A DNA stretch of 64,000 nt, from the NCBI RefSeq assembly GCF_009914755.1, contig NC_060927.1, one strand, 5' to 3'. Position 1 is the stretch's first letter; every line of letters starts with the position of its first letter. The DNA comes from the human T2T-CHM13v2.0 reference genome, Homo sapiens. Of this stretch, positions 4,322-5,046 are shown one piece after another. The notes under the pieces are model-generated. The model searched no databases. It was not told the DNA's origin and saw nothing but the letters and a program-made list of their open reading frames with translations. Position numbers and translations under genes: made by a program.

Positions 4322-5046
4322 GGTCGCTTTTGCTGGGCTAGTAACATCAAGGATCCACCGCAACATGTCTGCATCGTCCCTCCCATAGTACACCCCAGCG
4401 GCAGGCAAAGCCCATGCTCCTGCCCCCCCGCTGGTCCAACATCCCAGCACCATATTGACGGCGGCTCTGCAAGACCCATGGGCCAGGCCCCAGCCTATGC
4501 CCCAAGCAGACTACATTATGGGATATCTGCCTTACTTTTGCCAAGGCCAAGTAATATGGGGCCTCAGCCGCAGCTCCAAGCACCTAGGCATCCCTGCGGC
4601 TAAGTCTCCTGAGCAAGTGGTAAATAATCTTTCAGCTGATATATCCGCTAGCATTTATTGTGGTCAGGCCAGTGTTAAAAGTAAAAATATCCACCAGAAA
4701 AGAACTTTGATTCTTTAAAGTCGCTTTTTTGTTGTTGTTGTTGTTTGAGACGGAGTCTCACTCTGTCGCCCAGGCTGGAGTGCAGTGGCACCATCTCGGC
4801 TCACTGCAAGCTCTGCCTCCCAGGTTCACGCCATTCTCCTGCCTCAGCCTCCCCAGTAGCTGGGACTACAGGCACCCACCACCACGCCTGGCTAATTTTT
4901 TTGTATTTTTTAGTAGAGACGGGGTTTCACCATGTTAGTCAGGATGGTCTCGATCTCCTGATCTCGTGATCCGCCCGCCTCGGCCTCCCAAAGTGCTGGG
5001 ATTACACGCATGAGCCACCACGCCCGACCTCTTAAAGTCACTTATA
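4322..5046 (+). pseudogene. Spliced RFK (riboflavin kinase) mRNA fragment inside the provirus: 5'UTR + codons 1-59 + a downstream [10 protein letters not shown] segment; split by an AluY
   Basis: 4518-4694 encodes [59 protein letters not shown]. Recalled human RFK reads MRHLPYFCRGQVVRGFGRGSKQLGIPTANFPEQVVDNLPADISTGIYYGWASVGSGDVH, giving 37/59 identity with no gaps. Upstream MPQADYI (4497) matches RFK MPRADCI. 4694-4726 encodes [11 protein letters not shown] ([14 protein letters not shown]). Confidence 0.9.
4727..5029 (-). mobile_element. AluY inserted in the RFK fragment
   Basis: AluY diagnostics (gcaagctc, ttcacgccattc, ggatggtctcgatctcc). TSD about tctttaaagtcgctt / tcttaaagtcactt. Confidence 0.88.

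What the first reader, a model, noticed from the sequence alone, without database searches (positions are those of the whole stretch)
4322..5046. Endogenous retrovirus carrying a captured, spliced riboflavin kinase (RFK) mRNA fragment in place of gag-CA/pro/RT
Seen in the sequence: between the MA/Pro-rich gag part and the pol connection/RNase H remnant lies a GC-rich 5'UTR-like segment, then an ungapped match to RFK residues 1-59 (37/59 identical to recalled human RFK), then a jump to PEKNFDSL(K)SL, then viral pol. From recall, RFK has an intron near codon 28, and it is absent here, so the source was mRNA. The layout argues against an ordinary L1 processed pseudogene: the 5' end is kept and the 3' end lost, there is no poly(A) or TSD, it is sense to the virus, and it joins non-adjacent viral regions. 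Inference: this is oncogene-style transduction by template switching (the FAM8A1/ERV case is a precedent), producing a non-autonomous gag-RFK-env element that may have spread as a family. I do not know whether this copy is annotated or described.
Basis: partly seen in the sequence, partly recalled or inferred. Interest (0 to 1): 0.92.

Follow-up and report, generated by a model that had tools for sequence, protein, structure and literature searches.

The report
Old retrovirus family carrying captured RFK mRNA
A dead retrovirus copy between ZNF589 and NME6 carries a spliced piece of the human riboflavin kinase (RFK) messenger RNA in place of most of its own gag and pol genes, and ten copies in the genome descend from that one capture, a rare event in primates.

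Summary
Window 2553-8603 is a degenerate gamma-type provirus: two LTRs (K2P 0.094), a tRNA-Pro primer site, a gag MA/p12 remnant, RNase H and integrase scraps, and a broken env.

Window 4307-5092, interrupted by a later Alu (about 4727-5029), derives from spliced RFK mRNA. It holds the 5'UTR, codons 1-59, the end of exon 3, 10 nt of exon 4 and about 45 nt of 3'UTR. The translated stretch matches human RFK at E 2.6e-18. Introns 1 and 3 are absent.

RFK replaces 2.93 kb (CA, NC, protease, RT) that RFK-less relatives keep. Both junctions show microhomology and neither has a poly(A) tail.

Ten human loci carry the insert. Their RFK segments form one clade (98/97), so there was one capture. Five of the seven proviruses with two LTRs have their own perfect 4-bp target duplications. 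One copy (contig 3, 122.76 Mb) still holds exons 1-3 uninterrupted.

Shared changes are skewed to G>A (45 against 18 C>T) in GG/GA contexts, as expected from APOBEC3-type editing during replication.

Gag and RFK are out of frame, so RFK was probably passive cargo. I found no published description, and I could not check Dfam or Repbase.

The parts
2553..3072 (+). 5' LTR (TG...CA ends)
   Evidence: Direct repeat with 8090-8603. Ends located. K2P between the two LTRs is 0.094 over 516 aligned nt.
3077..3094 (+). Primer binding site of tRNA-Pro type
   Evidence: 17 of 18 match to a PBS-Pro motif that I recalled from memory. It sits 4 nt after the LTR end.
3632..3777 (+). Three direct repeats of about 50 nt in the leader
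   Evidence: the repeat finder family D5, copies 100/83/72% identical.
3780..4306 (+). gag remnant: MA and the proline-rich p12 part, ending at the capture junction
   Evidence: Window 3850-4135 is 79-85% identical to at least 35 RFK-less loci. It is collinear with the relatives' gag up to window 4225, where Gag_MA gives a weak hit. The junction follows ...ACTCCAA.
4307..4599 (+). RFK exon 1: 5'UTR from cDNA position 10, both ATGs (4497, 4518), codons 1-27
   Evidence: PDB match.
4600..4693 (+). RFK exon 2, first 94 nt (to about codon 59), joined directly to exon 1
   Evidence: 82% identity to the genomic exon. Junction located.
4694..4726 (+). End of RFK exon 3 and first nt of exon 4 ([11 protein letters not shown]), after a 135-nt internal deletion (cDNA 400-534)
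   Evidence: Exon 3/4 junction at 4718|4719.
4727..5029 (-). Later Alu insertion, with target duplication 4712-4726 / 5030-5043
   Evidence: Poly-T start and flanking duplication. Absent from the six other short-RFK copies.
5036..5092 (+). RFK exon 4 first 10 nt, then a 3'UTR piece (cDNA 921 to about 970) after a 350-nt deletion (cDNA 571-920)
5083..6030 (+). pol remnant: RT connection, RNase H and scraps of integrase. The crossover with RFK lies in 5083-5092.
   Evidence: Collinear with the pol of RFK-less relatives from 5083. There is a weak RNase_H hit in relative L028. By eye, the three-frame translation resembles MLV RNase H (with recall).
6033..8069 (+). env remnant (SU and TM), multiply broken
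   Evidence: Pfam TLV_coat at 7443-7799, E 2.5e-7. Collinear with the relatives' env. The longest open frame is 223 aa.
8077..8088 (+). Polypurine tract
   Evidence: Purine run directly before the 3' LTR.
8090..8603 (+). 3' LTR
   Evidence: Flanking 4-mers are AGAT / AGAC.

Best explanation
In an ancestor of humans, roughly 20-55 million years ago, a gamma-type retrovirus with a tRNA-Pro primer site picked up a spliced RFK messenger RNA.

The most likely route (inferred) is two template switches during minus-strand DNA synthesis on co-packaged RNAs. Reverse transcriptase moved from the RT-connection region of pol onto the RFK 3'UTR at a shared stretch of 8-10 nt. It copied the mRNA almost to its 5' end, then moved back to viral RNA in gag p12.

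The product lost CA, NC, protease and RT. It kept the LTRs, primer site, leader, MA/p12, RNase H, integrase and env. It could therefore multiply only with proteins supplied by a related helper virus.

It entered the germline repeatedly, leaving 10 loci. It lost more sequence on the way: a 350-nt RFK deletion present in the nine copies that reach that region (in L021 as part of a larger gap), then a 135-nt RFK deletion and about 600 nt of integrase in the seven-copy lineage that holds the window's copy. It was also hit by G>A editing.

RFK is out of frame with gag and shows no sign of selection, so it was most likely passive cargo. All copies are now dead.
For: Shown:
- Protein and DNA matches to RFK.
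- Three exon-exon junctions across the family.
- The same 5' junction in 9 of 10 loci: 8 by motif, L021 by alignment, and locus L022 not recoverable.
- The same RFK-3'UTR/pol junction in 9 of 10, with L022 truncated.
- The seven short-RFK copies all share both deletions (cDNA 400-534 and 571-920). L020 has only the second.
- The RFK segments of all 10 ERV loci form one clade (98/97). The seven short-RFK copies form a clade at 100/100. Three ordinary processed pseudogenes fall outside.
- Perfect 4-bp target duplications, different in each, in 5 of the 7 proviruses with two LTRs: TCTC, ATTT, CATA, ACAA, TGTC. The window has 3 of 4 matching, and L016 is unclear.
- Microhomology at the junctions: 8-10 nt at the 3' side and 1-2 nt at the 5' side, with no A-run.
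- RFK starts at position 10 of the longest RFK processed pseudogene, and no promoter sequence is included.
- RFK-less relatives are collinear on both sides and hold 2.93 kb with zf-CCHC, RVP and RVT_1 hits over Pfam cut-off and a Gag_p30 hit below it.
- Shared substitutions are G>A 45 against C>T 18 (p 0.0035). They are enriched at GG/GA: 28 of 62 against 17 of 72 (Fisher p 0.010).

Inferred: co-packaging, the order of the switches, and dependence on a helper.
Against: - The 5' microhomology is only 1-2 nt, which is weak on its own.
- The true 5' end of RFK mRNA is known here only by proxy, from the start of one pseudogene.
- No RFK-less provirus closer than about 85% (gag MA) or 71% (RNase H) was found, so the actual parent or helper is not identified.
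- The window's own target duplication has a mismatch and L016's is unclear.
- Some 'shared' differences may be changes in the human RFK gene rather than in the virus.
- Ages rest on substitution rates that I recalled.
- No other primate genome could be checked.
Confidence: 0.82

Rival explanations
1. Classical read-through transduction. A provirus sat upstream of RFK. A read-through or deletion-fused viral-RFK transcript was packaged, and only the 3' junction was made by a template switch.
For: This is the textbook route for oncogene capture (established knowledge). The 3' junction with 8-10 nt of microhomology fits it equally well.
Against: - Splicing from a viral donor would remove RFK exon 1, which has no acceptor. 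Yet exon 1 is present from position 10 of the pseudogene-defined mRNA start.
- A DNA deletion would be expected to bring in promoter sequence or start at an arbitrary point. None is seen upstream of the junction, where the sequence is the relatives' gag p12.
Confidence: 0.12
2. An ordinary L1-made RFK processed pseudogene landed inside a still active provirus. That provirus then spread, and the viral deletions came later.
For: Three L1-type RFK pseudogenes exist (contig 22 41.26 Mb, contig 1 240.23 Mb and 211.89 Mb), so RFK mRNA was retroposed repeatedly.
Against: - There is no poly(A) and no flanking duplication.
- The 3' end of the mRNA is missing while the 5' end is kept, the reverse of L1 copies.
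- The insert exactly replaces 2.93 kb, with microhomology at the pol side.
Confidence: 0.03
3. The several copies arose by segmental duplication or gene conversion of one locus, not by retroviral spread.
For: Relatives of the family do occur in duplicated pericentromeric and acrocentric regions.
Against: - The ten loci lie on eight contigs.
- Matches to the window stop at the LTR ends.
- Five proviruses have their own different 4-bp duplications.
- Each LTR pair has diverged on its own, K2P 0.092-0.129.
Confidence: 0.01

Closest known systems
FAM8A1 retrocopies inside HERV-K14 (Jamain et al. 2001, as described in PMC5131818; I read passages and Supplemental Table 8)
   Same: A spliced host mRNA sits inside a human endogenous retrovirus, with microsimilarity at the fusion points and more than one genomic copy.
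   Different: - A different virus class: gamma-type with a tRNA-Pro primer site here, beta-type HERV-K there.
- A different gene.
- Here there are ten loci in two lineages, including a less deleted intermediate form.
- RFK is not among the three human cases in that paper's Supplemental Table 8. That screen kept only uniquely mapping regions (Methods passage), and the table is titled 'recently originated retrocopies'.
Retrocopy of ENSG00000176788 flanked by MER4 LTR sequence (PMC5131818, Supplemental Table 8)
   Same: A host mRNA copy flanked by class I (ERV1-type) LTR elements in human, with no L1 hallmarks.
   Different: It is a single locus. Whether MER4 is the family seen here could not be tested, because no repeat library was available.
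Acute transforming retroviruses carrying v-onc genes (established knowledge, recalled)
   Same: A defective genome in which spliced cellular sequence replaces gag-pol parts, in sense orientation, dependent on a helper, with recombination junctions of short homology.
   Different: - The cargo is a metabolic kinase, truncated and out of frame with gag.
- There is no sign of selection on it: 9 synonymous against 14 non-synonymous shared changes.
- It is fixed in the germline as a family.
Non-autonomous LTR elements spread by helper proteins, such as ETn with MusD or the deleted HERV-H forms (recalled)
   Same: An internally deleted element that keeps LTRs, primer site and leader, and multiplies without its own gag-pol.
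   Different: Those carry no captured host mRNA.
Ordinary RFK processed pseudogenes (contig 22 41.26 Mb; contig 1 240.23 Mb and 211.89 Mb)
   Same: Intronless RFK copies in the same genome.
   Different: They hold RFK cDNA colinearly beyond the stop codon and far into the 3'UTR, as far as the reference cDNA reached. They have no retroviral sequence around them and fall outside the ERV clade.

Membership tests
Host mRNA captured by a retrovirus (LTR-mediated retrocopy / transduction) | The cellular part is intronless. | tested here: met
   Exon 1/2 and 3/4 are contiguous in the window, and 2/3 in L020. The genomic introns were located on contig 9.
Host mRNA captured by a retrovirus (LTR-mediated retrocopy / transduction) | It lies between the two LTRs of one provirus, in sense, replacing viral sequence. 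| tested here: met
   LTR pair. 2.93 kb of the relatives' gag-pol is missing exactly at the insert.
Host mRNA captured by a retrovirus (LTR-mediated retrocopy / transduction) | Short homology at the fusion points; no poly(A) and no L1-type duplication. | tested here: met
   8-10 nt at the 3' junction and 1-2 nt at the 5' junction, with no A-run.
Host mRNA captured by a retrovirus (LTR-mediated retrocopy / transduction) | The chimera itself was propagated by integration. | tested here: met
   10 loci. 5 of the 7 two-LTR proviruses have perfect, different 4-bp duplications. Single clade.
Acute transforming retrovirus type (expressed gag-cell fusion under selection) | The cellular reading frame is fused in phase to gag, or otherwise selected. 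| tested here: not met
   The gag phase enters RFK in frame 0, while both RFK ATGs are in frame 1. This holds in the pristine host sequence, in the window and in L020. Shared changes in codons 1-59 are 9 synonymous and 14 non-synonymous.
L1-made processed pseudogene | 3' poly(A) tail and a 7-20 bp target duplication around the copy, with the 3' end complete. | tested here: not met
   The insert ends about 280 nt after the stop codon inside the 3'UTR, joined to pol. There is no A-run.
Gamma-type (class I) endogenous retrovirus | Gamma-type env TM, MLV-type integrase C-terminal domain and 4-bp target duplication. | tested here: met
   TLV_coat in the window. MLVIN_C in L020 (27 bits, just under cut-off) and in relatives over cut-off. 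4-bp duplications.
A named Repbase/Dfam family (for example MER4, PABL, HUERS-P) | Match of LTR and internal region to the curated consensus. | not testable with these tools
   No repeat library was at hand. The LTR type has 339 first-look candidates in the genome.
Functional riboflavin kinase gene | Complete Flavokinase domain in an open frame. | tested here: not met
   The window covers profile positions 4-54 of 124 and scores below cut-off. The best copy, L020, covers 4-111 with a stop inside.

The most novel reading that the evidence does not exclude
The RFK cargo was not passive. The amino-terminal RFK fragment would have been translated from its own ATG on viral RNA and helped a helper-dependent exogenous virus that circulated in early anthropoids. 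One possible route is interference with the host RFK's link between TNF receptor 1 and NADPH oxidase (a link I recall from the literature). That would make this the fossil of a transducing retrovirus selected for a metabolic or immune-signalling gene rather than an oncogene.
Probability: 0.06. Interest if true: 0.85.

Novelty: new member of a known kind. Interest (0 to 1): 0.6.

Why it matters
Capture of host mRNAs by retroviruses is textbook for tumour viruses, but it is very rarely seen fixed in primate germlines. The one systematic screen I could read lists three human loci from two genes (PMC5131818, Supplemental Table 8).

This case adds a well preserved example with both recombination junctions readable. 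It has a less deleted intermediate, ten independent integrations and an editing footprint. Together these let one read the order of events: capture, helper-dependent spread and progressive shrinkage.

It also matters for annotation. These loci are not ordinary RFK pseudogenes, and about 500 nt of the family's 'retroviral' internal sequence is host-derived.

Tried and rejected
- **Literature.** Six searches gave no paper linking RFK to an ERV: 'riboflavin kinase' + 'endogenous retrovirus', RFK + HERV, FAM8A1 + endogenous retrovirus + transduction, 'riboflavin kinase' + retrovir*, RFK + ERV + pseudogene, and RFK with retrocopy terms. In PMC12548735 the two terms occur in unrelated contexts.
- **Naming the family.**
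  - A search on PABL / EnvPb terms was mostly noise.
  - PMC3113919 showed only that PABL_B corresponds to envR(b) at 3p24.3.
  - The related provirus at contig 3 16.02 Mb has no long env frame, so it gave no name.
  - The main table of Vargiu et al. 2016 (PMC4724089) is an .xls file that cannot be read here, so a possible classification of this locus there remains unseen.
- **Gag-RFK fusion.** Tested and rejected: the two are out of frame.
- **Is L020 much older?** My first LTR divergence for L020 (0.198) was inflated by flanking sequence. The local alignment gives 0.129 against 0.092-0.118 for the others. L020 is therefore structurally more primitive but only slightly older, if at all.
- **Intact genes.** No copy has an open frame over 262 aa.

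Full report
**What is in the window**

Window 2553-8603 is one degenerate provirus on the + strand.
- The two LTRs (2553-3072 and 8090-8603) are direct repeats with K2P 0.094 over 516 aligned positions.
- Four bases after the 5' LTR lies an 18-nt site that matches, at 17 of 18, a tRNA-Pro primer-site motif I recalled.
- A polypurine run (8077-8088) precedes the 3' LTR.
- The internal part has a gag start at 3780 and an env TM remnant (Pfam TLV_coat, E 2.5e-7, window 7443-7799).
- No open frame is longer than 262 aa.

**The RFK match**

The frame at window 4389-4718 hits human riboflavin kinase chains 1q9s (E 2.6e-18) and 1nb0 (E 1.7e-17) over residues 1-61. Pfam Flavokinase is below cut-off on this short piece (E 0.015).

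I located the RFK gene on contig 9 (loci L024 and L025). I read its four exons with their splice sites and made a reference cDNA in a script. The first version had wrong exon ends, and one search uses the corrected one, which gives the expected 162/155-aa frame. Position 1 is the 5' end of the longest RFK processed pseudogene. Exons end at 305, 457 and 560, the ATGs are at 203 and 224, and the stop is at 689.

Against this cDNA:
- window 4367-4693 aligns to cDNA 73-399 (76%, E 1e-67);
- window 4693-4730 aligns to cDNA 535-572 (92%);
- window 5046-5089 aligns to cDNA 921-964 (86%).

Alignment of the copies carries the RFK homology up to cDNA 10, which is window 4307.

The window therefore holds, in order:
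- the RFK 5'UTR, both ATGs and codons 1-27 (exon 1, to 4599);
- the first 94 nt of exon 2 (to about 4693);
- after a 135-nt gap, the last 26 nt of exon 3 and 10 nt of exon 4;
- after a 350-nt gap, about 45 nt of 3'UTR.

Exon 1 and exon 2 are about 1.5 kb apart in the gene and contiguous here. The exon 3/4 junction is also contiguous (4718|4719). The source was therefore spliced mRNA.

An antisense Alu (about 4727-5029) with a 14-15 nt target duplication splits the exon-4 piece. It is absent from the six other short-RFK copies.

**What the insert replaces**

Searches of the genome with the gag part and the pol part found many RFK-less relatives. For gag, 106 candidates appeared in the first look and 40 were scored, with identity 79-85% over window 3850-4135. 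For pol, 314 candidates appeared and 40 were scored, with identity 68-71% for most full-length matches over window 5100-5630.

Four such relatives (L028-L031) are collinear with the window from LTR to LTR, except between window 4225 and 5083. In the three where both edges could be read (L028, L030, L031), that interval holds 2921-2934 nt.

In that stretch Pfam finds zf-CCHC, RVP and RVT_1 over cut-off and Gag_p30 below cut-off (E 3e-4).

Behind the insert, the three-frame translation resembles the RT connection and RNase H of MLV by eye (recall). Relative L028 gives a weak RNase_H hit at the matching place.

**The junctions**

At the 5' side, the relatives' gag p12 reads on past ...ACTCCAA into their own sequence, about 70 nt downstream of a PPPY codon run. 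The RFK elements switch there to GCTCC..., which is RFK cDNA position 10. The overlap is 1-2 nt. No RFK promoter sequence is present.

At the 3' side, the RFK 3'UTR and the relatives' pol share an imperfect stretch of 8-10 nt (window 5083-5092), and the element crosses from one to the other inside it. There is no A-run and no flanking duplication at either side.

These are the marks of template switching by reverse transcriptase. PMC5131818 describes the same marks for LTR-mediated retrocopies (passages read).

**A family, and one capture**

The RFK-bearing stretch has 12 other matches in the genome, which fall at 10 ERV or pseudogene loci plus RFK exon 2. A second search with only the RFK part scored all 12 of its candidates.

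After inspection, ten loci including the window are retroviral. The other nine are:
- contig 3, 161.40 Mb
- contig 7, 23.79 Mb
- contig 19, 12.01 Mb
- contig 12, 126.62 Mb
- contig 6, 86.18 Mb
- contig 11, 5.87 Mb
- contig 3, 122.76 Mb
- contig 4, 143.92 Mb
- contig 23, 87.41 Mb

Three more loci are ordinary processed pseudogenes without retroviral flanks: contig 22 41.26 Mb, and contig 1 240.23 Mb and 211.89 Mb (found by the Pfam search).

Breakpoints across the ten retroviral loci:
- Seven loci (the window and L014-L019) share both RFK deletions and the pol junction.
- L020 (contig 3, 122.76 Mb) has cDNA 10-570 unbroken, so it carries only the 350-nt deletion.
- L020 matches Flavokinase over positions 4-111 of 124 with one stop inside (E 4.6e-24; E 3.9e-18 for the open part).
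- L020 also keeps about 1 kb of integrase region (weak rve, and MLVIN_C at 27 bits) where the seven-copy lineage has about 400 nt.
- L021 has a larger gap (cDNA 397-924).
- L022 is truncated after cDNA 364.

The 5' junction is present in 9 of 10 loci: 8 by motif, L021 by alignment, and L022 not recoverable.

A maximum-likelihood tree of the segment cDNA 1-399 (14 rows, 399 columns) puts the ten retroviral copies in one clade (98/97). The seven short-RFK copies form a clade at 100/100. The gene and the three pseudogenes fall outside.

**Independent integration**

Of the seven proviruses with two LTRs, five have perfect 4-bp target duplications, each different: TCTC, ATTT, CATA, ACAA and TGTC. 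The window has AGAT/AGAC, and L016 is unclear. Matches to the window end at the LTR ends.

LTR-LTR K2P is 0.092-0.118 in the seven-copy lineage (six pairs; L014 lacks most of its 5' LTR) and 0.129 in L020. With rates I recalled (2.2e-9 and 1.2e-9 per site per year), that is 21-54 My.

An earlier figure of 0.198 for L020 was inflated by flanking sequence and is withdrawn.

**Traces of replication**

I counted changes from the human RFK sequence that are shared by a lineage.
- There were 45 G>A against 18 C>T, over 134 G and 119 C sites (binomial p 0.0035).
- G>A is more frequent at GG and GA (28 of 62) than at GC and GT (17 of 72; Fisher p 0.010).
- In the stricter tally, only 9 of 29, 9 of 33 and 6 of 16 shared changes sit at CpG.

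This strand-asymmetric pattern is what APOBEC3-type editing of minus-strand DNA gives (established knowledge). It fits an insert that went through rounds of reverse transcription.

Caveat: some shared differences may be changes in the human gene.

**Was RFK expressed?**

The gag phase, fixed by the relatives' PPPY run and the CA start, ends a codon exactly at the junction. It therefore enters RFK in frame 0. Both RFK ATGs are in frame 1.

The open frames of the window (3815-4603) and of L020 (3326-3835) follow the gag phase through the 5'UTR and stop inside RFK. A gag-RFK fusion is therefore not supported.

Shared changes in codons 1-59 are 9 synonymous and 14 non-synonymous, which gives no sign of purifying selection. 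The 135-nt deletion is a multiple of three, which happens by chance one time in three.

**Mechanism, and how sure**

Shown: mRNA origin, a single capture, loss of CA through RT, spread by integration, and later deletions.

Inferred: RFK mRNA was packaged together with viral RNA. Minus-strand synthesis switched from pol to the RFK 3'UTR, ran to within about 10 nt of the mRNA's 5' end, and switched back to gag. A related virus then supplied the missing proteins.

The main rival is read-through transduction from a provirus upstream of RFK. It is disfavoured because exon 1 is present from near the mRNA start and no promoter sequence is included.

The LTR type is common: 339 first-look candidates, of which 40 were scored, most of them at loci without RFK. 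Helpers with similar LTRs plausibly existed, but none closer than about 85% in gag MA was found.

**Known or new**

Six literature searches found no report of RFK in an ERV.

PMC5131818 lists three human LTR-mediated retrocopies: two of FAM8A1 in HERVK14 and one of ENSG00000176788 in MER4. RFK is not among them (Supplemental Table 8). Its screen kept only uniquely mapping regions, and the table covers recently originated retrocopies, which would miss this family.

I could not consult Dfam or Repbase, nor the .xls locus table of PMC4724089. The family may therefore be curated under a name, with or without a note on RFK.

I file it as a new member of a known kind: host mRNA capture by a human endogenous retrovirus.

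Noticed in passing
window 1187-1625: A tandem array of four units of about 100-119 nt (61-87% identical to the reference unit), just upstream of the provirus.
   Followed up: no
G000 contig 22 41.26 Mb (L023); contig 1 240.23 Mb (L026); contig 1 211.89 Mb (L027): Three ordinary RFK processed pseudogenes without retroviral flanks. L023 is split by an insertion of about 320 nt. L026 reaches furthest 5' and served as a proxy for the mRNA start.
   Followed up: partly
contig 13 17.64 Mb, contig 14 12.85 Mb, contig 21 11.40 Mb, contig 22 15.86 Mb, contig 18 15.47 Mb: RFK-less relatives of the family sit in what look like duplicated acrocentric or pericentromeric regions, with near-identical scores.
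   Followed up: no
window 5100-5630 versus 3850-4135 and 6724-8562: The RNase H part is much less similar to RFK-less relatives (68-71%) than MA (79-85%) or env (75-80%). The cause could be relaxed constraint in the defective element, or a mosaic origin. I have no explanation.
   Followed up: no
window 2553-3072 (LTR type): The LTR type has 339 first-look candidates. Many scored hits at 84-90% identity stand alone and look like solo LTRs. How many derive from RFK elements is unknown.
   Followed up: no
L014 (contig 3, 161.40 Mb): The closest relative of the window's copy (about 89% identical) has lost most of its 5' LTR: only about the first 60 nt remain, then the leader.
   Followed up: partly
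window 3632-3777: Three direct repeats of about 50 nt lie in the leader between the primer site and the gag start. I did not examine whether the relatives share them.
   Followed up: no
L021 (contig 4, 143.92 Mb): This copy lacks about 100 nt of gag p12, including the PPPY run, ending within a few nt of the capture junction. It also has a larger RFK gap (cDNA 397-924).
   Followed up: partly
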